This document shows positions 1,463 to 14,380 of a stretch of DNA of 64,000 nucleotides, one piece after another. The notes under the pieces are model-generated. The model did no database searches and had not been told where the DNA came from. It saw only the letters and a program-made list of their open reading frames with translations. Each line of letters starts with the position of its first letter. Position 1 is the stretch's first letter. The stretch is taken from the NCBI GenBank assembly GCA_964387555.1, contig CAYLXM010000014.1, forward strand, positions 8,901 through 72,900, in the 5' to 3' direction. The DNA comes from an uncultured Rhodothermales bacterium (lineage in GTDB: Bacteria; Bacteroidota; Rhodothermia; Rhodothermales; CAYLXM01). Both the position numbers and the translations under genes were made by a program.

Positions 1463-1939
1463 TCAGTCGACTGCCGCAATGCAGTCCATTTCGACGAGGG
1501 AATCTCCGGGGATGCCGCCGTAACAGGCGACCGTCGTACGCACGGGTGGATTCGGACCGAACCGGCCGCGGAAGACCTCGTTCATGGCCCGGTAATCGGC
1601 GAGATCGGCGAGGTACACGTTGACCTTCAGGACGCGCTCCATCGAAGACCCGTTGCGCTCGAGTTCCTTTTGGAGTTCGTTGAGGACGTGGTCCGTGTGC
1701 GCCTTGATGTCGCCTTCGAAATGGGCGCCTTTGCCCGCGACGAACAATAGATTGCCGTGTTTGACCGCGCCGGAGAAGAGGGGAATCTCCTGGTCGGTCA
1801 CAATGTCGCCGACCACCTCTTTGCCCGAGTTCGATCGGCCGGCCGCTGCCGCCGTGGCGCCCCCGCCGATACCGAGTGCCGCCAGGGCGGATCCGATTCG
1901 CTTGACAAAGGTGCGCCTGTCTTTAGGTGTATGGTCCAT
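1463..1939 (-). CDS. RidA/YjgF-family reactive-intermediate deaminase with a twin-arginine signal peptide
   Basis: The ORF 1463..2206 was trimmed to the internal ATG at 1939, giving MDHTPKDRRTFVKRIGSALAALGIGGGATAAAAG, which has the near-consensus Tat motif RRTFVK. The C-terminal part (LFVAGKG...VKVNVYLADLADYRAMNEVF...RTTV) is typical RidA. Confidence 0.8.
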   Translation of the reverse strand: MDHTPKDRRTFVKRIGSALAALGIGGGATAAAAGRSNSGKEVVGDIVTDQEIPLFSGAVKHGNLLFVAGKGAHFEGDIKAHTDHVLNELQKELERNGSSMERVLKVNVYLADLADYRAMNEVFRGRFGPNPPVRTTVACYGGIPGDSLVEMDCIAAVD

Positions 1940-2209
1940 GGTGACAGTCTGGTTGGGGTGGAACTCGAAAACGGGCGTCAGAGGCGTCACAATCGGCCTC
2001 GAGGTCGAGGTCACCTCTGCAGCCCATGGAATGTAGCCCAAAAGAAGGGTCCCGATACACTTTGGCAAGCCCGACCGATTGGTTTCGCTAACGCGAGGGC
2101 GATTTTCCCGTGCCGTCTGGACGGGGCTGTACGCGATTGTGGACATTTGACGAATTGAACGCTGGACATTCCTCTTCTTCGCAGACGAGCCACATTTTTT
2201 CTTCAATCC

Positions 2210-2241
2210 TTTGCGAAATCTTGGCGCGTAATCTACATTTG
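2210..2241 (+). promoter_or_regulatory. candidate Bacteroidota-type promoter of subtilase 1 (-33 TTTG / -7 TACATTTG)
   Basis: TTTG lies at 2210-2213 and TAcaTTTG at 2234-2241, separated by a 20-nt spacer. The 13-nt string tttgcgaaatctt is identical to the one at 4213-4225 upstream of subtilase 2. Confidence 0.45.
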
Positions 2242-2757
2242 AAGATCGAAAGGCATGCGTTCAAGCCGCGCCGGTGGCGTTCGTAATGAGGCTGAAGACG
2301 TTGAACAGGGCGTGGAACGGGTGCATGCCTGTTTGAGATCATCAGAGTGTATTCTTGCGCTACAGATACGTGGCGTTGATGGAGGTCATGATTGCCACGG
2401 GGCCGTTTCTGGCGTCGTTTCTGAAAAGGAGGTCAGGCAGGTGAGGCTCAGGCGGGTAGGGGTTTGGTGCTGAAATACGTCCTGGGGCGAGCCTGGAATG
2501 TTGGACGGACTCTGGCGGGGAGATTGCAGTCGATTCGGTCCTACAGAGACGCCAATGACAAAATTTGGAGCATGTGAGAATTTGGCCTGATGTTTGATCT
2601 GCATCTCATCGAAGTGTTCGGCCGAACGTTCACGTTGAGTACACATCACACCATTATGTAATCCAATTGTCTCAGACAGGAGGCGAGCGCGTCATTCAAC
2701 ACAATGCTAATCCGCGGTACCTTTTTCACCCCAACACCAAACCCAACCAACACAACA

Positions 2758-4071
2758 ATGAAGACGTTGAAACTCACAGCCGCCGTCATGGCGGTATCCC
2801 TCATCTGGTCCGTATCACTGCTGGCCCAGGGGGACAAGGAACTTCCGGAAGTCGCACAGCAGGGCAAGCCCGATTTTTCGGCAGAGGAAGTGGTGGCGCC
2901 GGCCGGGACGGAGAAGCAGGAGAAGGTCATTCCGAACTCCTATATCGTTATCCTCAAGGCTGACAAGCATCCGCCCTTCCTGAACGGAAACAAGACGTTC
3001 GCGAATCGCGAAGAGCAGGCGGCCGAAGCCAAGAAGTACGAAGAGCGGGAAGCCAGAAAGATCAAGACGCTCGCTCGGGCAAAGTACAAGGTGGAAGAAT
3101 CCGCCATTCAGCACATCTTCACGAGCGGTTTCTCCGGATTCGTGGCCAACATCCCGGACGGCGAAGCCAAAGGCTTCATGGCCGGTGCGAAATCCGATGC
3201 CGACGTGGAGTCGTTCATCCAGGACTTCGAGGTGTTCGCCGATGCCACCCTGGAAGAGGTGATTCCGGCCGAAGAAATGCTGGCGCAGACCGTGCCGTGG
3301 GGCGTCGGTTTCACCGGCTGGGGCAATCAGTCCGTCGGAACCCGCTGGGCGTGGATCCTCGACACCGGAATCGACCTCGATCACCCGGATCTGAACGTCC
3401 AGACCAGCTCCACCTATGCCCGCTCGTTCATCTCAGGCCAGGGCGTCGATGATGGACACGGCCACGGCACGCATGTCGCCGGCACGGTCGGTGCCCGGAA
3501 CAACACCATCGGCGTTGTGGGCGTTGCTGCAAATACCTCGGTGATACCGGTGAAAGTCCTCTCGAACACGGGCAGTGGCTCATGGTCGGGTGTTCTTGCC
3601 GGTATCAACCACGTGTACTACTACCTCTGGGCCGGGGACGTGTTGAACCTCAGCCTCGGCGGAGCGGCTTCGTCCAGCTGGGACATTGAAAACAAGCTGG
3701 TTGCGGCTGGCCTGAAAGGGGCACACGTCGTGCTCGCCGCCGGCAATGAAAACGTACATGCCTCAACCAGGACGCCCGCTCGGGCCAACGGGATCAGGGT
3801 GTACACCATCTCGGCCATGGACAGCTACTGCCGGATCGCCAGCTTCTCGAACTACGGCAACCCGCCGGTCGACTTCACCGCTCCCGGTGTGTCGATTCTC
3901 TCGACGTACAAGGGCGGAGGATATGCCACGATGAGCGGCACGTCGATGGCGGCTCCGCACGTCGCGGGCCTCCTCTCCCTGACGGGTGGCGCGGTGCGCA
4001 GCCTCGGCTGCTGCTCCGGCGCGCTCTGCACGGACAAGGACGCCAGCAAGGACAAGGTCGCCAGAAGGTAA
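2758..4071 (+). CDS. secreted subtilisin-like serine protease (peptidase S8) with I9-type propeptide, paralog 1
   Basis: The ORF 2704..4071 was trimmed to the ATG at 2758, giving the signal peptide MKTLKLTAAVMAVSLIWSVSLLA|QGDKEL. The prodomain runs SYIVILKADKHP...FSGFVANI...FIQDFEV. The mature start AQTVPWGV resembles the subtilisin AQSVPYG. The triad motifs are ILDTGIDLDHPDL (Asp), HGHGTHVAGT (His) and SGTSMAAPHVAG (Ser), with the oxyanion Asn in AAGNEN. Confidence 0.92.
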   Translation: MKTLKLTAAVMAVSLIWSVSLLAQGDKELPEVAQQGKPDFSAEEVVAPAGTEKQEKVIPNSYIVILKADKHPPFLNGNKTFANREEQAAEAKKYEEREARKIKTLARAKYKVEESAIQHIFTSGFSGFVANIPDGEAKGFMAGAKSDADVESFIQDFEVFADATLEEVIPAEEMLAQTVPWGVGFTGWGNQSVGTRWAWILDTGIDLDHPDLNVQTSSTYARSFISGQGVDDGHGHGTHVAGTVGARNNTIGVVGVAANTSVIPVKVLSNTGSGSWSGVLAGINHVYYYLWAGDVLNLSLGGAASSSWDIENKLVAAGLKGAHVVLAAGNENVHASTRTPARANGIRVYTISAMDSYCRIASFSNYGNPPVDFTAPGVSILSTYKGGGYATMSGTSMAAPHVAGLLSLTGGAVRSLGCCSGALCTDKDASKDKVARR

Positions 4072-4104
4072 CCGAACCTCGGAAACGCGTCCCCTGCGTT
4101 TGAA

Positions 4105-4150
4105 GGTCTCCCCCCGTCCGGTTTGCCGGACGGGGGGAGACCTTTTTCTT
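4105..4150 (+). terminator. rho-independent terminator after subtilase 1
   Basis: A perfect 17-bp stem ggtctccccccgtccgg / ccggacggggggagacc encloses the loop tttg and is followed by tttttcttt. Confidence 0.85.
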
Positions 4151-4212
4151 TGCTCCCCGCCCACGTACACCCCCAAAGATGCACCGATCCGGAGATTTTT
4201 TCAGTCAATACT

Positions 4213-4244
4213 TTTGCGAAATCTTCAAGGATCATTTACATTAT
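4213..4244 (+). promoter_or_regulatory. candidate Bacteroidota-type promoter of subtilase 2
   Basis: TTTG lies at 4213-4216 and TAcaTTat at 4237-4244, with the same 20-nt spacer as at 2210-2241. The flanks are paralogous to the subtilase 1 promoter. Confidence 0.4.
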
Positions 4245-4737
4245 TTAATACATTGCATCCTGGAAGACAAGGTGAGCGATCCCTCGGGGAGGCAAACTGA
4301 GGGGTCCCCCTGCGACCAGTGGCAACGCATCGTTCTGTCTCGTTTCACGGGACCGATCCTGACGGTCCGCAACCCATCGGTTATTCAGGAAGTCTGTGGA
4401 GGAAGACTCATGAGGTTCGACCGGGACGGTATTCGGGCGTTCAGGGAGGAATTGATCAACGTGTCGTGAAGGGTAGTTTTGGGGCTGGGAGGTATGCAGC
4501 CCTGAGGGAGCGAGAGACCACACGGTCTTGAAGAAGGCGGTGGTCATGGTGCGGAGGGAGCGTGCGGTTGGAGGAGGGCCCGGGGGAAGTGGATGTTTCC
4601 GGTTGGCAGTGTGATTGAGTGCTTGCTTCGACACAACCGATCGTTGCTTCCGGCCGGTTGACCAGAATGACGCAATCGATTTCACCAGGTGGTTTGTGTC
4701 ATTCACATCATTCACATCCAATCCCAACCGTACTGCG

Positions 4738-6063
4738 ATGAAAGCATTGAAATCGATAACAGCCGCGATAGCAGTGTCACTGCTTTGGTCCCTCTCACTC
4801 TTCGCTCAGGGGGACAAGGAACTGCCCGAGAAGGCAGCGGAAGGCAAACCGGACTTCGCCGTCGAACAGGTTGCCGCACCGTCGGGCCAGACAAAAGAGG
4901 CGAAGCCCGTTCCGAACTCCTACATCGTCATCCTCAAGGAAGACAAACATCCGTCCTTCCTGAATGCCAACAAGGCCAAGAAATTCTCAACCCGTGAGGA
5001 GCAGGCGGCTGAGGCCAAGAAATGGGAGGAAAAGGAGGAACGAAAGATCAAGACACTGGCTCGTGCCAAGTACAAGGTCGCGGAGTCGGATATTCAACAG
5101 ATCTATACGGCCGGCTTTACCGGCTTTGCGGCCAACATTCCCGATGGCGACGCGAAGGGATTCATGGCGGCAGCAAAAACGGACGCGGATATCGACGAGT
5201 TCTTCCAGGACTTCGAGACCACGGTCGACGCCGTGCTCGAACGAGAAGTCCCCGCTGAAGAGCTCCTCGCGCAGACCGTGCCCTGGGGCGTCGGCTTCAC
5301 CGGATGGGGCAACCAGACCGTCGGATCACGGTTTGCCTTTGTGCTCGATACCGGTATCGATCTGTCGCACCCGGACCTCAGGGTCATGACGACGTACGGC
5401 GGCTTCTCCTGGGCGAGGTCGTTCATCTCGGGACAGAGTTATGCCGACGGACACGGACATGGAACGCACGTCGCGGGGACGATCGCCGCAAGAAACAACT
5501 CGATCGGGGTCGTCGGCGTGGCGGCGAATACGTACGTGGTGCCCGTCAAGGTGTGCACCAACACGGGCTCCTGCCCCTGGTCGTCCGTGCTTGCCGGGGT
5601 GAACCACGTATATACGTACGGATGGCCGCAGGACGTCATGAACCTGAGCCTCGGCGGGGCGGGAACGTATGGCACCCTGGAGAGCAAACTGGGGGCGGCC
5701 GGCTGGAGAGGCATCTACGTCAGTCTCGCCGCGGGGAACAGCAACATGCACGCGGGCGGATATACGCCCGCGCGGGCCAACGGCGTAAACGTCTATACGG
5801 TATCCGCCATGGACAGCTACTGCAGGATCGCCGGATTCTCGAACTACGGCAATCCGCCTGTCGATCGCACGGCGCCGGGCGTGAGCATTCTCTCCACCTA
5901 CAAAGGGGGCGGTTATGCCTATATGAGCGGCACATCAATGGCCGCACCCCACGTTGCCGGTTTGCTCGTGCTGACCGGGGGGAGCATGCGGAGCTTCGGC
6001 TGCTGCAGCGGCCGACTGTGCACGGACAAGGACACATCGAAGGACCTCGTTGCGCGAAAATAG
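4738..6063 (+). CDS. secreted subtilisin-like serine protease (S8) with I9-type propeptide, paralog 2
   Basis: The ORF 4615..6063 was trimmed to the ATG at 4738, giving MKALKSITAAIAVSLLWSLSLFA|QGDKEL. It is collinear with paralog 1 over its full length. Motifs are VLDTGIDLSHPDL, HGHGTHVAGT and SGTSMAAPHVAG. Confidence 0.92.
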   Translation: MKALKSITAAIAVSLLWSLSLFAQGDKELPEKAAEGKPDFAVEQVAAPSGQTKEAKPVPNSYIVILKEDKHPSFLNANKAKKFSTREEQAAEAKKWEEKEERKIKTLARAKYKVAESDIQQIYTAGFTGFAANIPDGDAKGFMAAAKTDADIDEFFQDFETTVDAVLEREVPAEELLAQTVPWGVGFTGWGNQTVGSRFAFVLDTGIDLSHPDLRVMTTYGGFSWARSFISGQSYADGHGHGTHVAGTIAARNNSIGVVGVAANTYVVPVKVCTNTGSCPWSSVLAGVNHVYTYGWPQDVMNLSLGGAGTYGTLESKLGAAGWRGIYVSLAAGNSNMHAGGYTPARANGVNVYTVSAMDSYCRIAGFSNYGNPPVDRTAPGVSILSTYKGGGYAYMSGTSMAAPHVAGLLVLTGGSMRSFGCCSGRLCTDKDTSKDLVARK

Positions 6064-6095
6064 CGCACGGTGAACGCTACGTCATCGGAGATCAC

Positions 6096-6145
6096 GCGGT
6101 CTCCCTCGCCCAGGCAACTCGGCGGGGGAGACCGCAACATTTTTG
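6096..6145 (+). terminator. rho-independent terminator after subtilase 2
   Basis: The stem gcggtctccctcgcc / ggcgggggagaccgc has one mismatch, encloses a 10-nt loop, and is followed by aacattttt. Confidence 0.7.
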
Positions 6146-6260
6146 GCACCTGCAATCGCCTGGAGCAGCACGTGCCGTGCGGTGGAAGATCAGTTCTTCC
6201 CTCTCCCTCTTGACAAGTCACGCTGCCACCAGCCATCTCACCAAAACACCGCGTCACCCA

Positions 6261-6292
6261 ATTGCACTTCTTCAAGTCTTCATGTACCTTGA
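6261..6292 (+). promoter_or_regulatory. candidate promoter of subtilase 3 (degenerate paralog of the two upstream promoters)
   Basis: aTTGCa lies at 6261-6266 and TAccTTGa at 6285-6292, again with a 20-nt spacer. cttcaag and taccttgaag echo the P2 and P1 sequences respectively. Confidence 0.35.
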
Positions 6293-6473
6293 AGCACACA
6301 CCGGATGGAGTGGTACGCTTCTGGAGGCCCTGGCAGAAGCGATGTGGTCCCAAAGGGACATTTGCGGTATTCGTGGAGCCGATCAGGCCGCGCAAAGAAC
6401 GAGGTGGCACGACCTGTTCACCGCTATTCGACGCGGCGCGCCGATTTTTCGCACCTCTTAAACTCAGGTAGCT

Positions 6474-7796
6474 ATGAAACGTCTCATCTGCACGGTCGGG
6501 GCTTTCGCATTCATGTTCTTCGGTGGGGCATCCCTGCATGCCCAGGGGGACAAGGAATTGAAAGAGAAACTCGACCAGGGGAAACCGGACTTTGCGGTGG
6601 AGCAACTGGCCACACCAGCGGGCGCCGCCAAGCAGGAGGCCGTGATACCCAACTCATACGTGGTGATGCTCAAAGCCGACAAGCATCCGCCCTTCCTGAA
6701 GGGCGCCAGAAAATTCTCTTCCAGGGAGGAACAGGCAGCCGAAGCTAAACGGTTTGAGGAGAGGGAAAAGAGGAAGATCCTCACGCTCGCACGGGCCAAG
6801 TACAAGCTGCAAGAGTCGGACGTCCTGGAGGTCTTCACAAGCGGATTTCAGGGCTTTGCCGCAACCATTCCGGACGGCGATGCCCGCGGTTTCATGAATG
6901 CCGCTAAATCTGATGCCGACGTCGAGTCCTTCTTCCAGGACTTTGAAGTCTCCATCGATGCCGTCGTGGAGCGGGAAATCCCCGCCGAAGACCTCCTCGC
7001 GCAGACGATCCCTTGGGGGGTGGCCTTCGTGGGATGGGCGGACGTGCCGGCAGGCCCCAGGATGGCATGGATCCTGGATACAGGTATCGACCTGGATCAC
7101 CCGGATCTGAACGTGGAGACCAATCCAACCTACGCCAAATCCTTCGTCAAGGGCGGCAAACTCGATGACGGCAACGGGCACGGCACGCACGTCGCAGGGA
7201 CCATCGGGGCGAAGAACAACACGATCGGTGTGGTCGGGGTGGCCGCCGGGGCCCGGGTGGTACCCGTCAAGGTGTTGTCAGACCGGGGCTCCGGATCCTG
7301 GTCCGGTATCCTGGCCGGCATCAACCACGTCTACATGTATGCCGTCGCAGGCGACGCGATGAACCTGAGCCTGGGGGGTGTCGGCAGCAATGCGGACGCG
7401 GAGGGCAAACTCGTCGCAGCAGGAGGGAAAGGGATCTTCGTGGCCATCGCCGCCGGCAACAGCAACGCCGACGCGAACAATTACACGCCGGCCCGAGCCA
7501 ACGGTGAGAAGGTCTATACCGTGTCGGCCATGGATTCCTACTGCAAACTCGCGTCGTTTTCGAACTACGGAAACCCGCCGGTCGATTATGCGGCGCCGGG
7601 TGTCGGCATCTTGTCCACGTACCGGCGCGGTGGGTATGCCGAACTGAACGGCACGTCGATGGCGTCGCCCCACATCGCCGGTCTGATGCTCCTCACCGGG
7701 GGAGCCGTCACGAGCTCCGGGTGCTGCGGAGCCGACGGCGCCTTCGTGTGTCAGGACAAGGACGCGGTCCTGGATCGCGTGGCCAGAAAGCCGTAG
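6474..7796 (+). CDS. secreted subtilisin-like serine protease (S8) with I9-type propeptide, paralog 3
   Basis: 440-aa ORF with signal peptide MKRLICTVGAFAFMFFGGASLHA|QGDKEL. It shares the prodomain architecture of the other two paralogs. Motifs are ILDTGIDLDHPDL, NGHGTHVAGT and NGTSMASPHIAG. Confidence 0.92.
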   Translation: MKRLICTVGAFAFMFFGGASLHAQGDKELKEKLDQGKPDFAVEQLATPAGAAKQEAVIPNSYVVMLKADKHPPFLKGARKFSSREEQAAEAKRFEEREKRKILTLARAKYKLQESDVLEVFTSGFQGFAATIPDGDARGFMNAAKSDADVESFFQDFEVSIDAVVEREIPAEDLLAQTIPWGVAFVGWADVPAGPRMAWILDTGIDLDHPDLNVETNPTYAKSFVKGGKLDDGNGHGTHVAGTIGAKNNTIGVVGVAAGARVVPVKVLSDRGSGSWSGILAGINHVYMYAVAGDAMNLSLGGVGSNADAEGKLVAAGGKGIFVAIAAGNSNADANNYTPARANGEKVYTVSAMDSYCKLASFSNYGNPPVDYAAPGVGILSTYRRGGYAELNGTSMASPHIAGLMLLTGGAVTSSGCCGADGAFVCQDKDAVLDRVARKP

Positions 7797-7829
7797 GGTT
7801 TTTCTTCGAAGGGTCTACCAGTTAGACAG

Positions 7830-7877
7830 AGCCCGCCCGCAGGAGACGATCAGACCCGCGGGCGGGATCTCTTTTTT
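7830..7877 (+). terminator. probable rho-independent terminator after subtilase 3
   Basis: The stem cccgcccgc (7832-7840) / gcgggcggg (7858-7866) is followed by atctctttttt. The loop is rather long at 17 nt. Confidence 0.55.
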
Positions 7878-7977
7878 CGCCGATCGGGTACAAAAACGTA
7901 TATGAAAGCGTGCCGGCTGACGCTGCACCGGCGCACGCTTCATCGAAAGACAAGGACTTTTTACTCAGAGGGACACC

Positions 7978-8472
7978 ATGAAGCGAACATTCATTCTACT
8001 CCTCCATACCCTGCTCTTCCTGTTTTTGGCGGGATGTGGAACGCAAAGCAAAACGCCGGACACCGATCTCGGAATGGGTAATGTGCCTGCCGATTCACCA
8101 GTCGATGCCCCCGACCGATACATTATCTTCCTCGATCAGGAGGTTTTCCCGTCCTTCAGCCACCCCAGTCAGCAGCGCGAATACAGCGACAGGGAAGAGC
8201 AGGGCCGGGCGGCCGAGGCCTATGAGGCCCAGATGAGCGAGAAGATTCGTGCCTACGCCATGGAGACGCTCGGACTGTCCTCCGATCAGATCGTGAATAT
8301 TATGGCAGCTGGTTTCTCCGCCATCGTGGCCAACCTGACCCCGGCTCAGGCTGCCGAGGTCGAGCAGTGGCCGCAGCGGTTTCCCGAAGTGGAGGAAGTG
8401 AATCGGGATTTCGAGTTCAGCATCGATCCGGGCGAGGTGATCATTGTCGATCCGGACACGCTGAAGCAGTAG
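7978..8472 (+). CDS. lipoprotein consisting only of a subtilase-prodomain (inhibitor I9-like) module
   Basis: 164-aa ORF with the lipobox LFLAGC. RYIIFLDQEVFPSF...DREEQGRAAEAYEAQMSEKIRAYAMETL...AAGFSAIVANL...EVNRDFEF is collinear with the prodomains of the three upstream subtilases (SYIVILKADKHPPF...REEQAAEAKKYEEREARKIKTLARAKY...TSGFSGFVANI...FIQDFEV). No catalytic domain follows. Confidence 0.8.
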   Translation: MKRTFILLLHTLLFLFLAGCGTQSKTPDTDLGMGNVPADSPVDAPDRYIIFLDQEVFPSFSHPSQQREYSDREEQGRAAEAYEAQMSEKIRAYAMETLGLSSDQIVNIMAAGFSAIVANLTPAQAAEVEQWPQRFPEVEEVNRDFEFSIDPGEVIIVDPDTLKQ

Positions 8473-8970
8473 CCCGACGGCCCGGCGGCCTCCGTCCGAC
8501 CGTTGCTGTAGCCGTCCGGACAAATCCAGGCCCCCCCGATCCGGTACGGCCCCGGCAGGCCATGTCCTGGCGGACCACGGCTCCCGACCACCTGGATCGG
8601 GGCGAGGGCGTGGTTTCGCCTTCGTTCGTCTGCTCTTCCCCGGGGTGGGCCAGTCGGAATCTCGGCACCAAGAAAGCAGCCCGAGACGCAAAGGGCGAAT
8701 CGAACGTCTCCTAAGCCCGCGCGACGAACCCCTGTACGATCCTGTGAGGGCACATTATAGGGCACGAGGATTTACCACATTGTTGGTTGCCAAAGCGCTT
8801 TCAGAGTAGTAGTTTTTGCTCGGCTGACCGGCAAAGTTCCACTACAGTTCTTTCCCTCCAATCGGAGGCGCCATGCGGTACATCCGAGCGGAGGCCCCAT
8901 CAACCCTATTAAACCATCGTCGCAGGGTGTTGAATTGGTTCCTGCGCATCAACCACCGGAGAAACAGTCC

Positions 8971-11900
8971 ATGAATCCAACCACACAACGAGGGCGGCGC
9001 GTTCTGAAGAGAACGGCCGGCGCGCTCGCGGTGATGCTGGCGTTTGGGGCTCAGGTGATCCTGGCCCAAATGCACACCGTGACGGGTACGGTAACGTCCG
9101 CCAACGACAACTCGGCGCTGCCGGGTGTCAACATTATCGAAGTCGGGACGCAGACCGGCGCTATGACCGATGCGCGCGGTCAGTACACGATTTCGATCTC
9201 CAGTCCCAACGCATCGCTCGCGTTCTCCTTTGTCGGCTATGAGACGCAGACGGTTGCGGTGGGTGGTCGTACCTCCGTTAACGTAGCCCTGGCCGAGGAC
9301 GTCCGCATGCTCGAGGAAGTGGTCGTGACTTCGTTCGGGATCGAACGACGCGAACGTGCTGTCGGCTTCTCAGTGAGCAAGGTGGACGGCGCCGAACTGG
9401 CCGAGATTCGCGAGACGAACATCGCGAACTCGCTGGCCGGCAAGGTCGCAGGCGTCATGGTTCAGAAGCCGGCAACAGGTTCCTCCGGCTCGAGCCGGGT
9501 CGAAATCCGCGGTTCATCGTCTCTCGGAAGCGGTCAGGACAACCAGCCGCTGTACGTGGTCGACGGTGTTCCGATCGACAATACCGTACTCGGTCAGGCC
9601 GGTATGTGGGGCGGTTGGGACGGTGGCGACGGCATCTCGAGCATCAACCCCGACGACATCGAGAACATCTCCGTCCTCAAAGGCCCTGCGGCCGCAGCCC
9701 TCTACGGCTCCCGCGCGAAAAACGGCGTCATCCTCATTACGACGAAGACCGCCAAGACCGGGACCGGGCTCGGCATCGAGTTCAACAGCAATACGACGTT
9801 TGAGAATATCCTGACCAGTACAGATTATCAGGATATTTACGGGCAGGGAAGCCGGGGCAATCGTCCCGTAACGGCCCAGGAAGCCCGCGATACGAACACC
9901 TCGGCCTGGGGGGCAAAAATGGACGGTGCGCCCACCATTCAGTGGGACGGCGTTGCGCGCCCCTACTCCGTTGTCGACAATAACCTCGGCGACTTCTACC
10001 AGACCGGGATCACGTCGACGAACACGCTGGCCCTGAGCGCTGCGACGCAGCAGTCGGCCACGCGGTTCAACGTGACCCACCTGACCAACCAGGGCCTCCA
10101 GCCCTATTCCGGCCTGGAACGCACCACATTCACCATGCGGTCCACCGCCAACCTTGGATCGAAGTGGACGGCGGACGCCAAGCTGAACTTCATCCGGGAG
10201 TATGTGAAGAACCGGCCGCGTCTCTCGGACGCCCCGGGGAACGCGAACTATGCCATCTACTCACTGGCGCCCAACGTCGGCGTTGAGCACATGAAGTGCC
10301 CAATTGATCCGGCGACCGGAGCGCCGATCCCGGAGGAGCAGTGCACGCCGGGTGTGGGCCTTGACGGAAAAGAATACACCATCTGGGACAACATCTACGC
10401 CCAGAACCCGTGGTTCGCCGCCCACAACATGAAGCAGACGGACGAAGACCGACGCCTCATCGGCTTCTTCTCCCTGCAGCATCAATTCACGGACTGGCTG
10501 TCGCTGATGGGCCGGTTCGGGGGAGACACCTATACCACGCGCCGTACCAACCTCGAGCCGTACGGACTGGCATACAACTCGCCGGGCAGGCTCTGGGAAC
10601 AGGAGTTCCGGATCAGTGAGGTCAACACCGACTTCCTCCTCATTGCGGACAAGGGCTTCGAAGCCGGTGGAAGCTCCTTCGGCGTGAACGCCACCCTGGG
10701 AGGCAACCTCCTCTACCGGCAAAGAGAGGACCTGACACTGGACGGCGCCGGGGGCTTCAACGTCCCCACGCTTGTAACCGTAGGCAACCAGCTCAACCCC
10801 CGAATCGGGTACGGCTACAACGAGAAGCAGATCAACTCGTTGTACGGATCGACGGAATTGTCCTACAACGACTACCTCTTCCTGACCCTCACGGCGCGGA
10901 ACGACTGGTCGTCGACCCTGCCGACGGACAACAATTCGTACTTCTACCCGTCGGTGGGCCTGAGCCTCGTGTTCAGCGACCTCTTGCAGATGCCGTCCTG
11001 GGTCACCTTCGGCAAACTGCGTGCGTCGTGGGCGGAAGTCGGTGGGGATACCGATCCCTATCAGCTGAGCTTGACGTACTCGTTGGCAGGTTCCCACCTC
11101 GGTCAACCGCGTGGCGTCGTGTCGCAGGGAACGATCCCCCTCGCCGGCCTGAAGCCGTCGGCACAGACAGGCGTCGAGGCCGGATTTGATATCCGGTTCT
11201 TCGACAACCGGCTGGGTATAGACCTCACCTACTACGACCAGTCGACCGCCAACCAGATTCTGGCGACCTCGATTTCGCAGACCTCCGGATTCGGCTCCGC
11301 TGTGATCAACGCCGGGGAAATGAAGAACTCGGGTGTTGAACTTCTGGTCACTACGACGCCGGTTCGTACGGCTGACTTCCGCTGGGATTTCGACGTAAAC
11401 ATCGCCAATAACAATAACGAGGTCGTGTCCCTCGCCGGCGAACAGACCACGCTGAACCTCGGGGAAGCCCGCAGCCGTAACGCATTCGTCGTGGCCGAGG
11501 TGGGTGAGCCCTACGGCACAATTCGCGGTTATAAGTTTCTCCGCGAAGTGGCATCGGGCGACGATCCCGACGATCCGTGTTCCTTCAGCGGCGCGATCAA
11601 GCATGACGCAGCCGGGCTGCCCCTGTCGAGCAGTATCTGCAACCTGGGTGTCGGTACGCCGAACATCATCGGCGGTATCAGCAACACGCTGCGTTGGAAG
11701 CGGCTCACGCTGGATATGCTGATCGACATGCGCTTTGGTGGGGACCTTTACTCCGCGACCAACCAGCTTGCCTACGGATCCGGACGGCATCAGCACACGG
11801 TCGAGTACACCCAGGAGGACGGCAGCGTCTGGCGGCGTGAGGATGGGAAGATCACGGGCGTCGGCGTGGGGCCCGACGGCAGCGCGAACACGGTGGCGGT

Positions 11901-12204
11901 TGATGCACAGGACTATTTCGGACGCATGTCCGGCATCACCGATCTGTTCGTCTACGATTCCAGCTTCCTGAAGCTGCGCGAAGTGCGACTGGGCTACCGA
12001 TTGCCGGACTCCTGGTTCGACAACACGCCCGTGCAGATGGCTTCCGTCTCCGTCGTCGCGCGTAACCTGCTGCTGCTTTACAGCAACATCGACAACGTCG
12101 ATCCGGAATCTGTGTTTGCGGTCGATAACGGAAACATCGGCTTCGAGTACTTCGGATCGCCTCAGGCCCGGAGCTTCGGCTTCAACGTCAATTTCCGTTT
12201 CTAG
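8971..12204 (+). CDS. SusC/RagA-family TonB-dependent outer-membrane transporter
   Basis: The ORF 8935..12204 was trimmed to the ATG at 8971, giving a signal peptide ending ...VILA|QMHTVTG. A CarboxypepD_reg-like N-terminal domain (TGTVTSANDNSALPGVNIIEVGT..TDARGQY) is followed by a plug (VVVTSFGIERRERAVGFSV) and the terminal barrel strand ...SFGFNVNFRF. Confidence 0.92.
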   Translation: MNPTTQRGRRVLKRTAGALAVMLAFGAQVILAQMHTVTGTVTSANDNSALPGVNIIEVGTQTGAMTDARGQYTISISSPNASLAFSFVGYETQTVAVGGRTSVNVALAEDVRMLEEVVVTSFGIERRERAVGFSVSKVDGAELAEIRETNIANSLAGKVAGVMVQKPATGSSGSSRVEIRGSSSLGSGQDNQPLYVVDGVPIDNTVLGQAGMWGGWDGGDGISSINPDDIENISVLKGPAAAALYGSRAKNGVILITTKTAKTGTGLGIEFNSNTTFENILTSTDYQDIYGQGSRGNRPVTAQEARDTNTSAWGAKMDGAPTIQWDGVARPYSVVDNNLGDFYQTGITSTNTLALSAATQQSATRFNVTHLTNQGLQPYSGLERTTFTMRSTANLGSKWTADAKLNFIREYVKNRPRLSDAPGNANYAIYSLAPNVGVEHMKCPIDPATGAPIPEEQCTPGVGLDGKEYTIWDNIYAQNPWFAAHNMKQTDEDRRLIGFFSLQHQFTDWLSLMGRFGGDTYTTRRTNLEPYGLAYNSPGRLWEQEFRISEVNTDFLLIADKGFEAGGSSFGVNATLGGNLLYRQREDLTLDGAGGFNVPTLVTVGNQLNPRIGYGYNEKQINSLYGSTELSYNDYLFLTLTARNDWSSTLPTDNNSYFYPSVGLSLVFSDLLQMPSWVTFGKLRASWAEVGGDTDPYQLSLTYSLAGSHLGQPRGVVSQGTIPLAGLKPSAQTGVEAGFDIRFFDNRLGIDLTYYDQSTANQILATSISQTSGFGSAVINAGEMKNSGVELLVTTTPVRTADFRWDFDVNIANNNNEVVSLAGEQTTLNLGEARSRNAFVVAEVGEPYGTIRGYKFLREVASGDDPDDPCSFSGAIKHDAAGLPLSSSICNLGVGTPNIIGGISNTLRWKRLTLDMLIDMRFGGDLYSATNQLAYGSGRHQHTVEYTQEDGSVWRREDGKITGVGVGPDGSANTVAVDAQDYFGRMSGITDLFVYDSSFLKLREVRLGYRLPDSWFDNTPVQMASVSVVARNLLLLYSNIDNVDPESVFAVDNGNIGFEYFGSPQARSFGFNVNFRF

Positions 12205-12250
12205 GACAGCCGAACCACACAGCCTGAGTAACTCTGAATTCCTGCAAATC

Positions 12251-13837
12251 ATGATTGTCATGAAGATGATGTTGAAGCATCTGGGATTGGCCGTCGTGTT
12301 GGTGGGTTTCCTTTCCCTGACGTCCTGTGATTCCATTTTCAAAATGGACGAGACGTTCGAGGAGATGAACATCAACCCGACCCAGGCCAGCCAGATCGAT
12401 CCAAACTTCAAGTTGACCGACATCCAGCTCCGTGTCTCCGGCGAGCGGTACGAGAACTGGCGGACCAACTTGATCTATAGCTCAACGATGGTACAGCACT
12501 TCGCCACCTATCCGACCTACTGGTCAGGTGACAAGTACCTGTATAACCGCGATTACTCGAAATCGATGTGGGACCGGTACTATCCCAACATCGCCAAGAA
12601 CCTGGAGGACCTGCTCGCGCAGACGGCGGCAGATCCCGCGCAGGTAAACATGAACGCCATCGCACGGGTGGTGCGGGTGTTCATGTACCACCGGTTGACG
12701 GACCTCTACGGGGATATTCCGTACTCCGAAGCCGGAAAGGGCTACCTGGAGGGTATCACCAAGCCGAAGTACGATACCCAGGAGTTCATCTACAAGGACA
12801 TGCTCAAGGAGTTGGATGAGGCGGCTGCGGCAATGGATCCTGCGCAGGCCTCCTTCGGCTCGGGCGATCTCATCTTCCAGGGCGATGTGGCCAAATGGAA
12901 GAAATGGGCCTACTCGATGATGCTCCGGCTGGCCATGAGGATCTCCGAAGTGGATCCCGCCACGGCACAGCAGTACGTACAGAAAGCCGTCGCCGGCGGC
13001 GTCATGCAGAGCAATGCTGACCTGGCGCGCGTTCCGCACGATTTGGCTGGCTGGACGAACGGGTACAGCGACGTCCTCCATACCGGTGGTGAGGCGAACA
13101 CGGCGAAGATCAGCAAGACCTTCATGGACTGGATGCTCGCCCACGGAGATCCGCGCGTGAACGTGTTCGGAAAACCCCGCGTCGCGGGCGCCCCTCCGGT
13201 GGGCCTGCCCAATGGACTGAACGCCAGTTCGACCGGCAACCCGGCGTCGCGCGAAGACGATCCGAGCTGGGTGCCGTGCGCCACCCCCGGTACGCCGGCG
13301 GCCGGTGAGATCTGCGAAGACCTGGTCTACTGGGTCTGGAATCCCGTCTTCCTCGATCGGGATGATCCGATGCTGTTCCAGTCCTACGCCGAAGTCCAGC
13401 TCCTGCTCGCCGAAGCCGCCGTTCGGGGATGGCATTCGGGGAACGCCGCAACGCACTTCGAAAACGGCGTGCGGGCGGCTATGGAGCATCTGTCGATCTA
13501 CGGGGCCGGCGCCTCTATCGCCGCCGCGGACATCGATGCCTACGTGGCCGCGAATCCGTTCGACGGGTCCATCAAGCAGATCGCCGAGTTCTACTGGTCC
13601 ATCCATATCCAGAACCACTACGAGGCATTTGCGAACTACAGGCGGACGGGCTTCCCTGAGTTGGTTCCGACCAACTACCCCGGAAACCGGACCAACGGGA
13701 CCGTGCCGCGTCGTCTCCGTGGCGATGATGGAGAAGTGGTGAGCAACACGGACAACTACCTGGCAGCGATGAGCCGTCAGGGGGTGGACGACAACAACTT
13801 CTTCACGGTGCCCCTGTGGTGGGACAAGCGGCCATAA
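12251..13837 (+). CDS. SusD/RagB-family nutrient-binding lipoprotein
   Basis: It lies immediately downstream of SusC. The start was trimmed to the ATG at 12251, giving MIVMKMMLKHLGLAVVLVGFLSLTSC with a lipobox. The length and motifs (NWRTNLIYS, YGDIPYSEAG, the W/Y-rich C-terminus ...PLWWDKRP) are typical of SusD. Starts at 12260-12269 are also possible. Confidence 0.88.
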   Translation: MIVMKMMLKHLGLAVVLVGFLSLTSCDSIFKMDETFEEMNINPTQASQIDPNFKLTDIQLRVSGERYENWRTNLIYSSTMVQHFATYPTYWSGDKYLYNRDYSKSMWDRYYPNIAKNLEDLLAQTAADPAQVNMNAIARVVRVFMYHRLTDLYGDIPYSEAGKGYLEGITKPKYDTQEFIYKDMLKELDEAAAAMDPAQASFGSGDLIFQGDVAKWKKWAYSMMLRLAMRISEVDPATAQQYVQKAVAGGVMQSNADLARVPHDLAGWTNGYSDVLHTGGEANTAKISKTFMDWMLAHGDPRVNVFGKPRVAGAPPVGLPNGLNASSTGNPASREDDPSWVPCATPGTPAAGEICEDLVYWVWNPVFLDRDDPMLFQSYAEVQLLLAEAAVRGWHSGNAATHFENGVRAAMEHLSIYGAGASIAAADIDAYVAANPFDGSIKQIAEFYWSIHIQNHYEAFANYRRTGFPELVPTNYPGNRTNGTVPRRLRGDDGEVVSNTDNYLAAMSRQGVDDNNFFTVPLWWDKRP

Positions 13838-13978: not shown

Positions 13979-14380
13979 GTGAAAATCTTCCATCTTGCTC
14001 TTCTTATCCTACTGATTGCCCCGCTCGGGTGCGGAAGCGAAAAAGGCGCCGTCCGAAGCCGAACCGGCCCCATCACGGCCCTGGAGATCGAGGATTCCGG
14101 CCTCATTTTCAATGATGCCTACGATGTCGTGCGGCATTTCCGGCCAAACTGGCTCGTCAAGCGAGGGGTGGCACGCTTCCCCACCGCGACGAATACGGAA
14201 ATGCTCGACTACGTAGCCGTCTACGAAGATCGAACCCTGCTGGGTGATCCCGAAACCCTGCGCCAAATCAGCGTGCAGCGTATCGGGGAAATTGAACGCC
14301 TGTCACCGACCCAGACCCAGACGCTCAGCCCCTTCTTTCACGCGCACGGCGCGATCATTATCCACACGCGAGCCCGTTAA
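13979..14380 (+). CDS. hypothetical small lipoprotein
   Basis: 133-aa ORF with a GTG start and the signal/lipobox MKIFHLALLILLIAPLGC. I recognise no family. Its position between susD and the CRTAC1-like gene supports that it is real. Confidence 0.5.
   Translation: MKIFHLALLILLIAPLGCGSEKGAVRSRTGPITALEIEDSGLIFNDAYDVVRHFRPNWLVKRGVARFPTATNTEMLDYVAVYEDRTLLGDPETLRQISVQRIGEIERLSPTQTQTLSPFFHAHGAIIIHTRAR

What the first reader, a model, noticed from the sequence alone, without database searches (positions are those of the whole stretch)
2200..8472. Tandem triplication of a secreted subtilase, each copy an independent transcription unit with a paralogous promoter, ending in an orphan prodomain gene
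Three collinear S8 genes (2758-4071, 4738-6063, 6474-7796) share the same signal-peptide end (A|QGDKEL), the same enlarged I9-like prodomain and a compact catalytic domain. That domain ends in a Cys-rich tail (GCCSG.LCTDKD..D.VAR[RK]; GCCGADGAFVCQDKD in copy 3). Each copy is followed by its own strong hairpin terminator (4105-4150, 6096-6145, 7830-7877). Each is preceded by a recognisably paralogous TTTG-N20-TAnnTT(T)G promoter-like element (2210-2241, 4213-4244, 6261-6292; 13 nt are identical between the first two). The duplication unit was therefore promoter + leader + gene + terminator, and the three copies can be regulated separately. None carries a recognisable T9SS C-terminal domain or any extra binding domain. 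The array sits directly upstream of a SusC/SusD pair.
Basis: seen in the sequence. Interest (0 to 1): 0.6.

Follow-up and report, generated by a model that had tools for sequence, protein, structure and literature searches.

The report
Three subtilase genes plus inhibitor-like lipoprotein
An uncultured Rhodothermales-like bacterium carries three old, diverged copies of a subtilisin-type protease gene, each apparently with its own promoter and terminator, followed by a small conserved lipoprotein that is a free-standing copy of the protease's own prodomain and most likely acts as a built-in protease inhibitor.

Summary
Three intact S8A pro-subtilisin genes (2758-4071, 4738-6063, 6474-7796; 64-73% aa identity) each end in a strong hairpin plus T-run. 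Each is preceded by TTGC-N19-TAC(A/C)TT. That pattern occurs only at these three sites in the 64 kb (0.08 expected) and is kept upstream of both orthologues in the syntenic relative L001.

The array is old, not a recent triplication. dS is saturated, dN/dS is 0.07-0.2, and both duplications predate the split from L001, which has only two copies. Outside the CDS, only the promoter island and the terminator stems are recognisably paralogous; the leaders (about 510, 490 and 180 nt) are not. Sites that differ between paralogue lineages are enriched in substrate-binding segments (p=0.001). The Cys-rich tail is probably a disulfide staple, not a sorting signal. Export beyond the periplasm is unproven.

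The "orphan" (7978-8472) is not debris. It has a lipobox, is conserved in L001 (dN/dS 0.12-0.14) and has no catalytic remnant downstream. In related loci the same slot holds a Kazal inhibitor gene or a Kazal-prodomain fusion lipoprotein. It is therefore most likely a dedicated, membrane-anchored propeptide-like inhibitor. This kind is characterised only in eukaryotes, to my knowledge, and is functionally akin to Tannerella potempins.

Interest is moderate.

The parts
2210..2241 (+). Promoter-like element of copy 1 (TTTG-N20-TACATTTG; also readable as TTGCGA-N17-TACATT)
   Evidence: Exact pattern hit at 2211-2239. It is 85% identical over 46 nt to L001 3598-3643, the only conserved island in the distal intergenic DNA.
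2246..2757 (+). Putative 5' leader of copy 1 (about 510 nt). The distal 290 nt are not conserved. The proximal ~215 nt (about 2539-2757) are conserved with L001-A and include the palindrome GTTCGGCCGAAC (2616-2627) and a C/A-rich stretch before the ATG.
   Evidence: Alignment A3. tblastx similarity is equal in all frames, so the region is non-coding. No Rfam hit. Fold z = +0.75, so it is not unusually structured. The palindrome is unique in the window.
2758..4071 (+). S8A pro-subtilisin copy 1 (437 aa): signal peptide 1-23/24 (A|Q), prodomain about 25-175, catalytic domain 176-437
   Evidence: Pfam S8 at 1.3e-35. Subtilisin Carlsberg aligns from query residue 175/176, which equals mature residue 1. 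AF2 pLDDT 88.6. The best fold matches are unprocessed pro-Tk-subtilisin and pro-subtilisin E. D32/H64/N155/S221 equivalents are present.
4102..4155 (+). Intrinsic terminator of copy 1 (20-bp stem, T-rich tail)
   Evidence: Terminator scan. Fold -49.6 kcal/mol, z = -7.4.
4213..4244 (+). Promoter-like element of copy 2 (TTTG-N20-TACATTAT)
   Evidence: Pattern hit at 4214-4242. The 13-nt exact match to copy 1's element was reached by 0 of 100 shuffles.
4738..6063 (+). S8A pro-subtilisin copy 2 (441 aa). It has an extra Cys pair (C268/C274 equivalents) in the substrate-binding strand.
   Evidence: The Cys pair co-occurs in 7 of 7 family members that have either Cys.
6096..6145 (+). Intrinsic terminator of copy 2
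   Evidence: Inverted repeat 6096-6135. Fold z = -5.3. The stem is paralogous to the terminators of copy 1 and L001-A.
6261..6292 (+). Promoter-like element of copy 3 (ATTG-N20-TACCTTGA)
   Evidence: Pattern hit at 6262-6290. The orthologous element is kept upstream of L001-B. Pairwise similarity to copies 1 and 2 alone is not above background.
6474..7796 (+). S8A pro-subtilisin copy 3 (440 aa), orthologue of L001-B
7828..7877 (+). Intrinsic terminator of copy 3 (hairpin plus TTTTTT)
   Evidence: Fold z = -2.3. The orthologous hairpin in L001 has z = -5.4, and the stem and T-run are conserved.
7978..8472 (+). Stand-alone propeptide-like (I9-type) lipoprotein, 164 aa. It has a lipobox FLAG|C (Cys20), a disordered linker (about 21-45), a prodomain core (46-143) and a flexible C-terminal tail (144-164). 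It is the predicted protease inhibitor.
   Evidence: Matches S8 prodomains at E 1e-9 to 1e-15. The orthologue in L001 is 71-74% identical with dN/dS 0.12-0.14. [quoted passage not shown] The top fold hits are subtilase propeptides, but weakly (E >= 0.05). There is no hairpin terminator after it.
8787..8815 (+). Promoter-like element of SusC (TTGCCA-N17-TAGTTT), followed by a ~155-nt strongly conserved leader
8971..13837 (+). SusC-like TonB-dependent transporter (8971-12204) and SusD-like lipoprotein (12251-13837). They are syntenic neighbours; their functional link to the proteases is unproven.
   Evidence: Pfam. Synteny with L001.

Best explanation
The locus is an old, three-member family of pro-subtilisin (S8A) genes in an uncultured Rhodothermales-related bacterium. 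It arose by two successive tandem duplications that predate the split from its nearest sampled relative.

Transcription (inferred). Each gene is most likely its own transcription unit. Each has a Bacteroidetes-type -33/-7 promoter motif (TTGC-N19-TAC(A/C)TT) far upstream, a long leader and a rho-independent terminator.

Proteins. Each product has a Sec/SPI signal peptide ending A|Q. It has a roughly 150-residue I9-type prodomain that should fold and then transiently inhibit the enzyme, with autoprocessing predicted before AQT(V/I)PWG. The subtilisin-like catalytic domain has a short C-terminal tail that appears to be pinned by two disulfides and an invariant D-x-D-x3-D motif.

Divergence. The paralogues have been kept under purifying selection. 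They have diverged preferentially in the S1/S4 substrate-binding segments. The array therefore most likely supplies three proteases of different specificity that can be expressed separately.

The last gene. The gene at the end of the array encodes a lipid-anchored, free-standing copy of the prodomain fold. It most likely binds the mature enzymes as a cleaved propeptide does: its sheet docks on the two surface helices through the retained D-F-E motif, and its C-terminal tail lies in the active-site cleft. In this way it would act as a dedicated membrane-anchored inhibitor, a safety catch that protects the cell envelope from its own proteases.

Shown versus inferred. Shown: gene structure, homology, fold, conservation, selection and synteny. 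Inferred: promoter use, processing site, disulfides, localisation and inhibition.
For: Genes and fold.

Separate units:
- Hairpins with T-runs follow each gene.
- The motif occurs 3 times in 64 kb, all upstream of the three genes, against 0.08 expected.
- The motif is conserved upstream of both L001 orthologues.
- The relaxed motif TTG-N19-21-TAnnTT has 8 hits, 7 of them fully intergenic although intergenic DNA is 13.8% of the window. One of these is a conserved site upstream of SusC.

Age and selection:
- NJ tree with 500 bootstraps: (w1, L001-A) 100%, (w3, L001-B) 100%, w1+w2 as sisters 0%.
- dS is 1.3-1.8 and dN/dS is 0.07-0.2.

Specificity divergence: lineage-fixed differences are 13/52 in substrate-binding segments against 19/242 elsewhere (odds ratio 3.9, p=0.001). 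An example is E versus S at BPN' position 156.

Tail: Cys358 is present if and only if the tail has 3 Cys (25/25 against 0/65). D426, D428 and D432 are near-invariant.

Inhibitor role of the orphan:
- It is homologous to the prodomain.
- It has a conserved lipobox and is under purifying selection.
- Its length ends within about 1-3 residues of the position equivalent to the prodomain/mature junction.
- A gene for a known inhibitor type sits directly downstream of S8 genes of this family in 5 further lineages. Four have Kazal (L005/6, L009, L010/11, L013). One has a Kazal-prodomain fusion lipoprotein (P0127 in L008), which is the orphan's nearest stand-alone relative.

Precedents:
- Stand-alone propeptide-like inhibitors, including Plasmodium SUB1-ProM, which is encoded next to three subtilase genes (PMC6993865).
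- Outer-membrane lipoprotein inhibitors genetically linked to secreted peptidases in Tannerella (PMC9890683).
Against: - There are no transcript data. By classical sigma-70 criteria the motifs score only 8/12, and the tool's scan did not call them.
- Copy 3's motif resembles the others only at pattern level, and the pattern was derived post hoc.
- The roughly 500-nt leaders have no explained function. A proximal promoter within the conserved last 215 nt cannot be excluded.
- Pfam I9 scores are below the gathering threshold for all four proteins.
- The orphan model's matches to propeptide structures are weak (E 0.05-1).
- The alignment of the orphan's tail to the junction is ambiguous; MAFFT placed it against the S8 C-terminal tail.
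- Four related lineages have no downstream inhibitor gene.
- No complex model could be computed.
- The list of substrate-binding residues and the BPN' sequence came from memory. Only the positions of the catalytic residues were checked.
Confidence: 0.6

Rival explanations
1. The orphan gene is the decaying 5' remnant of a fourth subtilase copy that lost its catalytic domain. It is a pseudogene fragment with no function of its own.
For: It lies collinear at the end of the array and is homologous only to the prodomain. MAFFT aligns its last 12 residues with the S8 C-terminal tail. This could hint at an internal deletion.
Against: - dN/dS is 0.12-0.14 against the L001 orthologue, with the full ORF, start and stop kept.
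- It has gained a lipobox instead of the SPI A|Q site.
- No catalytic-domain remnant is found downstream in either genome; all such hits have E >= 0.2.
- It is only 24-29% identical to the neighbouring prodomains and scores slightly better against distant family members.
Confidence: 0.05
2. The stand-alone prodomain is not an inhibitor. One version makes it a trans-acting foldase (intermolecular chaperone). The other makes it a surface tether that holds the mature subtilases on the outer membrane next to SusC/SusD, forming a protein-utilisation machine.
For: - Subtilisin propeptides can act as folding catalysts in trans (established knowledge; reviewed in references of PMC6993865).
- The gene sits between the proteases and SusC/SusD in both genomes.
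- After the lipid-modified Cys comes K-T-P-D-T-D. This loosely resembles the K-(D/E)2 surface export signal (PMC5080379) and the K-M-D-E of the neighbouring SusD.
- The S8 proteins lack their own anchor or T9SS domain.
Against: - Each S8 already carries its own complete prodomain, so a trans foldase is redundant.
- Binding through the propeptide face normally blocks the active site.
- Relatives place bona fide inhibitor domains (Kazal) in the same slot, and one protein fuses Kazal to this prodomain.
- The association with SusC/SusD is limited to this lineage.
Confidence: 0.17
3. The three genes, with or without the orphan, are transcribed mainly as one read-through polycistron, or from proximal promoters. 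On this view the conserved upstream TTGC...TACATT islands are binding sites for a shared regulator, or chance similarities, rather than promoters.
For: - The motifs lie 180-520 nt from the start codons, which is unusually far.
- They fail the tool's sigma-70 threshold.
- The last ~215 nt before copy 1 are also conserved and could hold the true promoter.
- A second motif occurs inside leader 2 at 4452-4479.
- There is no conserved promoter before the orphan gene, so read-through of terminator 3 is likely there.
Against: - Strong, conserved hairpin terminators with T-runs follow every copy.
- The motif geometry matches the Bacteroidetes -33/-7 type. The relaxed motif is almost exclusively intergenic and points at downstream genes.
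- It is conserved in the orthologue while the surrounding DNA is not.
Confidence: 0.18

Closest known systems
Bacterial pro-subtilisins of subfamily S8A (subtilisin Carlsberg/BPN'/E, Tk-subtilisin)
   Same: - Same order of catalytic residues and the same motifs.
- The mature N-terminus AQTVPWG corresponds to AQSVPYG.
- About 40-43% identity in structural alignments.
- An I9 prodomain is docked as in unprocessed pro-Tk-subtilisin and pro-subtilisin E.
   Different: - The prodomain is twice as long (about 150 aa against 77). It has a disordered N-terminal part, a 27-residue first helix and an extra strand.
- The N-terminal helix segment (BPN' about 9-19) and a C-terminal helix are missing.
- The tail is short, with a D-x-D-x3-D motif, and in this clade has a four-Cys pattern.
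- The host is diderm, and the export route is unknown.
Stand-alone subtilisin propeptide-like inhibitors, MEROPS family I9 (POIA1, yeast PBI2, Arabidopsis SPI-1, Toxoplasma MIC5, Plasmodium SUB1-ProM)
   Same: - A small separate gene product with the propeptide fold and no catalytic domain.
- SUB1-ProM is likewise encoded in a syntenic locus next to three subtilase genes, and it inhibits one of them (PMC6993865).
   Different: - All characterised examples named in PMC6993865 are eukaryotic.
- This one is bacterial and lipid-anchored.
- It is demonstrably homologous in sequence to its neighbours' prodomains (E down to 1e-15) rather than a mimic without sequence similarity.
- Inhibition has not been tested.
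KLIKK-peptidase/potempin system of Tannerella forsythia (PMC9890683)
   Same: - A Bacteroidota member with genes for exported peptidases, including the subtilase mirolase.
- Each peptidase gene is genetically linked to a small outer-membrane lipoprotein inhibitor that protects the cell's own envelope.
   Different: - Potempins are beta-barrels (OB-fold or eight-stranded), not propeptide-like.
- They lie upstream of the peptidase and are co-transcribed with it.
- KLIKK peptidases carry a T9SS C-terminal domain.
- There it is one inhibitor per peptidase; here one gene follows three peptidase genes.
Kazal-type (MEROPS I1) inhibitor genes downstream of the same S8 family in other Bacteroidota (seen here in L005/6, L009, L010/11, L013)
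   Same: They occupy the same position and strand, directly after one or two S8 genes of this family. They are small exported proteins. A fusion protein (P0127, in L008) joins this Kazal module to the orphan-type prodomain.
   Different: The fold is unrelated. The stand-alone Kazal proteins have SPI-type signals rather than a lipobox. I found no description of them in the literature searches run.
Polysaccharide-utilisation-locus-like SusC/SusD loci with peptidases
   Same: A SusC/SusD pair lies adjacent to genes for exported degradative enzymes, and the synteny is kept in the relative.
   Different: The enzymes are proteases without surface anchors. No linked regulator was found. More distant S8 relatives are not next to SusC/SusD, so the link may be incidental.

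Membership tests
Peptidase family S8, subfamily S8A (subtilisins) | Asp-His-Ser catalytic triad in that order within the DTG / HGTH / GTSMA motifs, plus the oxyanion Asn | tested here: met
   In the alignment with BPN', the D32, H64, N155 and S221 columns are conserved in all three copies and in both L001 orthologues. These positions are invariant in 90 family members.
Peptidase family S8, subfamily S8A (subtilisins) | Profile match above the curated threshold, and a subtilisin fold | tested here: met
   PF00082 scores 119-125 bits against a cut-off of 21.8. The AF2 model has pLDDT 88.6. Foldseek gives E 1e-24 to pro-Tk-subtilisin and about 1e-21 to subtilisin Carlsberg.
Peptidase family S8, subfamily S8A (subtilisins) | Proteolytic activity and autoprocessing of the propeptide | not testable with these tools
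   The processing site before AQT(V/I)PWG is inferred from homology to the mature N-terminus of subtilisin Carlsberg.
I9 propeptide domain within the three S8 precursors | Pfam Inhibitor_I9 match above the gathering score | tested here: not met
   Scores are 18.0-19.2 bits against a cut-off of 21.2 (E 0.002-0.005). Shorter relatives of the same family do carry precomputed PF05922 hits.
I9 propeptide domain within the three S8 precursors | [quoted passage not shown] | tested here: met
   Model elements are E57-66, H84-110, E117-121, E127-131, H134-144 and E150-160. Alignments of 384-393 columns to unprocessed pro-Tk-subtilisin and pro-subtilisin E cover both domains.
Stand-alone propeptide-like inhibitor (MEROPS I9 type), for the orphan gene | Propeptide homology or fold without a catalytic domain in the same gene | tested here: met
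   BLASTP/tblastn E values are 1e-9 to 1e-15 to S8 prodomains. The ORF ends at 8472, and nothing S8-like follows in either genome. The orthologue has the same length.
Stand-alone propeptide-like inhibitor (MEROPS I9 type), for the orphan gene | Curated profile or structural match to I9 | tested here: inconclusive
   PF05922 scores 15.8 bits, E 0.024, below the cut-off. The AF2 model has pLDDT 81. The top Foldseek hits are propeptides of the Aspergillus alkaline protease, PAM protease, cucumisin and PC1/3, plus POIA1, but at E 0.05-1.
Stand-alone propeptide-like inhibitor (MEROPS I9 type), for the orphan gene | Inhibits a cognate subtilase | not testable with these tools
   Support is indirect only: Kazal genes and a Kazal-prodomain fusion occupy the same slot.
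Bacterial lipoprotein (SPII substrate), for the orphan gene | Lipobox [LVI][ASTVI][GAS]C at the end of an N-terminal hydrophobic segment | tested here: met
   The sequence is FLFLAG|C in the window and FFLFA|C in L001, with the Cys and the following GTQSKTPDTD invariant. Whether it faces the surface or the periplasm is undecided, because the match to the K-(D/E)2 export signal (PMC5080379) is imperfect.
T9SS cargo | C-terminal sorting domain (Por_Secre_tail or related) | tested here: not met
   No such Pfam or NCBIfam hit is found in any of the four proteins. The proteins end 29 residues after the last catalytic-domain helix.
Rho-independent terminators | G+C-rich hairpin followed closely by a T-run | tested here: met
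   Only the first passes the tool's strict loop and tail rule. The other two have larger loops or a 4-5-nt gap before the T-run. The orthologous hairpins are conserved in L001.
Bacteroidetes-type housekeeping promoter (-33 TTTG / -7 TAnnTTTG) | Both motifs at 19-21-nt spacing upstream of the gene | tested here: inconclusive
   Copy 1 matches fully. Copies 2 and 3 match TAnnTT but not the final TG, and copy 3 has ATTG at -33. The relaxed motif is strongly enriched in intergenic DNA. The consensus is recalled from the literature and was not verified for Rhodothermales. No transcription-start data exist.
SusC/SusD-based utilisation locus | Adjacent SusC-like TonB-dependent transporter and SusD-like lipoprotein, with linked degradative enzymes | tested here: met
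   Pfam Plug, TonB_dep_Rec, CarbopepD_reg_2 and SusD-like_2. Synteny with the S8 array is kept in L001. Co-regulation and substrate are not testable.

The most novel reading that the evidence does not exclude
This Bacteroidota S8 family carries a modular inhibitor slot directly downstream of the protease gene(s). Non-homologous inhibitor modules have replaced one another in that slot: Kazal, a Kazal-prodomain fusion, and a prodomain alone.

On this reading, the window's lipoprotein would be the first bacterial stand-alone I9 inhibitor known to me. It would be a single membrane-anchored propeptide mimic that controls three paralogous subtilases of different specificity, at the envelope, next to a SusC/SusD importer. 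That would amount to a protein-utilisation locus with a built-in safety catch.
Probability: 0.3. Interest if true: 0.6.

Novelty: new member of a known kind. Interest (0 to 1): 0.4.

Why it matters
Tandem protease paralogues are ordinary. This locus is a clean natural example of two things.

1. Paralogues that kept separate promoter and terminator signals while diverging in their substrate-binding loops.

2. A bacterial protease array that ends in a free-standing, lipid-anchored copy of the enzyme's own prodomain. The stand-alone propeptide-like inhibitors characterised so far, as listed in PMC6993865, are all eukaryotic. Lipoprotein inhibitors linked to exported peptidases have been characterised in Tannerella (potempins, PMC9890683), and those have unrelated folds.

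If the inhibitor role is confirmed, three consequences follow:
- Diderm bacteria would be shown to have reached the same self-protection solution by recycling the propeptide.
- The Kazal / fusion / prodomain series in relatives would document how one inhibitor type replaces another.
- The pair would offer specific inhibitors for a widespread, uncharacterised environmental subtilase family.

Tried and rejected
- Close genomes. The genome-contig scan with copy 1 found only a 32%-identical Bacteroidales hit, so copy number could be compared with a single syntenic metagenome contig (L001). The exact-sequence look-up for copy 1 found no record.
- Known RNA elements in the leaders. Rfam at E<=1 gave only two sub-threshold hits on the terminator hairpins.
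- Unusual leader structure. Fold z-scores are +0.75, -1.2 and +0.35, so this was rejected.
- Small conserved ORFs in the leaders. tblastx similarity is equal in all six frames, so the conservation is at nucleotide level only. Rejected.
- A shared operator. The palindrome GTTCGGCCGAAC is unique to leader 1 and to the L001 leaders, and is not found in leaders 2 or 3.
- L001-A as a copy 1/copy 2 recombinant, which would explain the loss of a copy. The sliding-window and informative-site analysis shows no clear switch. Unresolved and not claimed.
- Relic of a fourth catalytic domain after the orphan. None was found.
- Site-wise dN/dS in the substrate loops. dS is saturated, so I used lineage-fixed amino-acid differences instead.
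- Wider family of the orphan. The word-based search found only the L001 orthologue. The full HMM search of 1.84 billion representatives found 11 hits. Most are S8 precursors. Two apparent stand-alone hits are truncated or frameshifted S8 genes, and one is the Kazal fusion.
- Literature on bacterial Kazal/S8 pairs and on protease loci next to SusC/SusD. The searches returned nothing directly relevant.

Full report
**1. What is there**

The ORF list and alignment confirm three collinear genes at 2758-4071, 4738-6063 and 6474-7796.
- Their proteins are 73% (1 vs 2), 67% (1 vs 3) and 64% (2 vs 3) identical.
- DNA similarity (67-70%) starts about 20 nt before the ATG and ends within the 3' part of the CDS.
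- Each protein hits Pfam Peptidase_S8 at E about 1e-35. Each hits Inhibitor_I9 only below the gathering score.
- The closest solved relatives are subtilisin Carlsberg/KerA. Query residue 175/176 aligns to residue 1 of the mature enzyme (AQTVPWG vs AQSVPYG). This implies a signal peptide (1-23/24...A|QGDKEL), a roughly 150-residue prodomain and a 262-residue catalytic domain.
- An AlphaFold model of copy 1 (pLDDT 88.6) matches unprocessed pro-Tk-subtilisin and pro-subtilisin E over both domains (E about 1e-24).
- The prodomain is an I9 fold. It is enlarged by a disordered N-terminal part, a 27-residue first helix and an extra C-terminal strand.
- No T9SS domain, lipobox or other module is present.
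- The A|Q cleavage site fits the Bacteroidetes Q-rule (PMC5837995).
- EF-G in the window is 64-66% identical to Rhodothermaceae/Rhodothermales sequences. The host is therefore a divergent, uncultured Rhodothermales-like member of the Bacteroidota in the broad sense.

**2. The C-terminal tail**

- Across 90 family members the D-x-D-x3-D motif of the tail is near-invariant.
- The three tail cysteines occur if and only if Cys358 (DSYC) is present in the catalytic domain: 25/25 against 0/65.
- The tail is thus best read as a short segment stapled to the catalytic domain by two disulfides, possibly with a bound cation. This is an inference. It is not a sorting signal.
- Copy 2 has an additional co-varying Cys pair in the substrate-binding strand (7/7 co-occurrence).

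**3. Transcription signals**

- All three genes are followed by stable hairpins with T-runs (z -7.4, -5.3, -2.3).
- The stems are paralogous, and they are conserved in the orthologous locus.
- Upstream, the 13-nt identity between copies 1 and 2 exceeds all 100 shuffles. Copy 3 is not above background in an unbiased pairwise search.
- A five-way alignment with the two upstream regions of the syntenic contig L001 shows a common TTGC-N19-TAC(A/C)TT.
- That pattern occurs exactly three times in the 64-kb window, all at these sites, against 0.08 expected. The pattern was derived post hoc.
- Between the window and L001, the element upstream of copy 1 is the only conserved island in the distal intergenic DNA (85% over 46 nt).
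- A relaxed form (TTG-N19-21-TAnnTT) has 8 hits in the window. Seven lie wholly in the 13.8% of the window that is intergenic. Six of these point at a gene 123-519 nt downstream, including a conserved site before SusC.
- This is good in-silico support for real promoters of the Bacteroidetes -33/-7 type. It is not proof.
- The implied leaders are about 510, 490 and 180 nt, and the orthologues keep these lengths.
- The leaders share no similarity with each other. They match no Rfam family, are not unusually structured and contain no conserved ORF.
- Only the last ~215 nt of leader 1 are conserved with L001.
- The claim that the duplication unit was promoter + leader + gene + terminator is therefore only partly recoverable from the sequence.

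**4. History and selection**

- L001 (JGI metagenome contig, 15.7 kb) has the same neighbourhood but only two S8 genes.
- In a bootstrapped NJ tree, copy 1 pairs with L001-A and copy 3 with L001-B (both 100%). Copies 1 and 2 are never sisters (0/500). A third organism's fragment (P0003) sits near the copy 1/2 node.
- Synonymous distances are saturated (dS 1.3-1.8) and are larger for the 1-2 pair than for 1-A.
- Both duplications therefore predate the split, and the L001 lineage most likely lost a copy. A test for a recombinant 1/2 gene in L001 was inconclusive.
- dN/dS of 0.07-0.2 shows that all copies are maintained.
- Positions fixed differently in the copy 1 and copy 3 lineages are enriched in the segments that line the S1-S4 pockets in subtilisin: 13/52 against 19/242, p=0.001. 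They include the equivalents of BPN' 62, 156, 217 and 218.
- The residue list and the BPN' sequence are from memory, checked only by the positions of D32/H64/N155/S221.
- This supports sub-functionalisation in specificity.

**5. The 'orphan' prodomain gene (7978-8472)**

- It matches S8 prodomains at E 1e-9 to 1e-15. [quoted passage not shown]
- Its best structural hits are subtilase propeptides, but weakly.
- It begins with a lipobox (FLAG|C) that is conserved in L001.
- It is 71-74% identical to its orthologue, with dN/dS 0.12-0.14. No catalytic-domain remnant lies downstream.
- It is slightly more similar to prodomains of distant family members than to its neighbours. So it is an old, functional gene and not debris.
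- It keeps the D-F-E motif. This aligns with the region that holds the helix-capping acidic residues of subtilisin propeptides (compare PMC6993865).
- Ungapped, it ends within one residue of the position equivalent to the prodomain/mature junction. This is what a pre-cleaved propeptide mimic would look like, although the alignment of the tail is ambiguous.

**6. Comparative evidence for an inhibitor role**

- A full HMM search of 1.84 billion representatives found only 11 hits to the orphan profile. One is P0127, a lipoprotein that fuses a Kazal domain to this prodomain.
- P0127 is encoded directly after an S8 gene of this family in L008.
- Stand-alone Kazal genes sit directly after S8 genes of the family in four further lineages: L005/6, L009 (after two tandem S8 genes), L010/11 and L013.
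- The Kazal module of the fusion is 59% identical to one of them.
- In all, 7 of the 11 lineages inspected have an inhibitor-type gene in this slot. Four have none.
- Position and fusion both point to inhibition as the orphan's function.
- Precedents exist for both halves of the idea. Stand-alone propeptide-like inhibitors are known; all named examples are eukaryotic, and Plasmodium SUB1-ProM is encoded beside three subtilase genes (PMC6993865). Outer-membrane lipoprotein inhibitors genetically linked to exported peptidases are known in Tannerella (PMC9890683).

**7. What remains open**

- Promoter use and independent regulation.
- The function of the long leaders.
- Whether the enzymes leave the periplasm.
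- Which membrane face carries the lipoprotein. Its post-Cys sequence only loosely resembles the K-(D/E)2 export signal (PMC5080379).
- Whether one inhibitor serves all three enzymes.
- Whether the proteases feed the adjacent SusC/SusD importer. The synteny is conserved only in this lineage.

**8. Verdict**

The subtilase array itself is ordinary. The conserved, lipid-anchored stand-alone prodomain, and the Kazal / fusion / prodomain series in relatives, are the parts worth following up. I rate novelty as a new (bacterial, lipoprotein) member of a known kind, and interest at 0.4.

Noticed in passing
window 243-1451 (-) and 1463-2014 (-); L001 342-3364: Two genes lie divergently upstream of the array: a SelA-like PLP enzyme and a RidA/L-PSP protein. 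Both have twin-arginine signals (TRRTLL, DRRTFV). Both are conserved in L001, together with an amidohydrolase. This looks like a periplasmic amino-acid deamination set, which would fit a protein or peptide scavenging island.
   Followed up: partly
window 8758-8970; L001 8038-8250: The ~210 nt before SusC are about 90% conserved with L001, far more than any S8 leader. They include a promoter-like TTGCCA-N17-TAGTTT (8787-8815) and an upstream GGATTTACCACATT box. This may be a regulated leader.
   Followed up: partly
window 13979-14380 and 14399-17734: A 133-aa lipoprotein with no family match lies between SusD and a 1111-aa FG-GAP/ASPIC (UnbV) protein. Both are conserved in L001. A sodium:solute symporter and a galactokinase follow.
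   Followed up: no
window 2616-2627; L001 about 4013-4024 and 5799-5808: A perfect 12-nt palindrome, GTTCGGCCGAAC, sits in leader 1. It is kept in the leader of L001-A and partly (GTTCGGCCGA) in that of L001-B. It is absent from leaders 2 and 3 and is unique in the window.
   Followed up: partly
window 4452-4479: A second promoter-like motif (TTGATC...TAGTTT) lies inside leader 2, 259 nt before the ATG of copy 2.
   Followed up: no
window 7907-7940: An 11-13-bp inverted repeat (AAGCGTGCCGG...CCGGCGCACGCTT) lies between terminator 3 and the orphan's start codon. It has no T-run and is not conserved in L001.
   Followed up: no
window 2758-8472 compared with its flanks; L001: Synonymous divergence between the window and L001 is 1.3-1.4 for the S8 genes and the orphan. 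It is only 0.46-0.76 for the flanking SelA-like, RidA and SusD genes. The protease block either evolves faster or has a different history from its flanks.
   Followed up: no
L008 8575-10684: An S8 gene of the family, split by a frameshift into 216-aa and 232-aa ORFs, is followed by a lipoprotein that fuses a Kazal domain to a prodomain (P0127). A T9SS lysyl endopeptidase comes next. The contig also carries RepA/ParA-like genes, so it may be a plasmid.
   Followed up: partly
L009 2533-5717: Another Bacteroidota MAG has two tandem S8 genes of this family (448 and 449 aa) followed by a 74-aa Kazal gene. This is an independent case of an array plus a terminal inhibitor gene.
   Followed up: partly
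alignment A7 (90 family members): 23 of 90 family members have Cys instead of Gln at the end of the signal peptide. These are a shorter clade (about 414 aa) with a canonical Pfam I9 hit and are probably lipoprotein subtilases. The family therefore switches between SPI (Q-rule) and SPII export.
   Followed up: no
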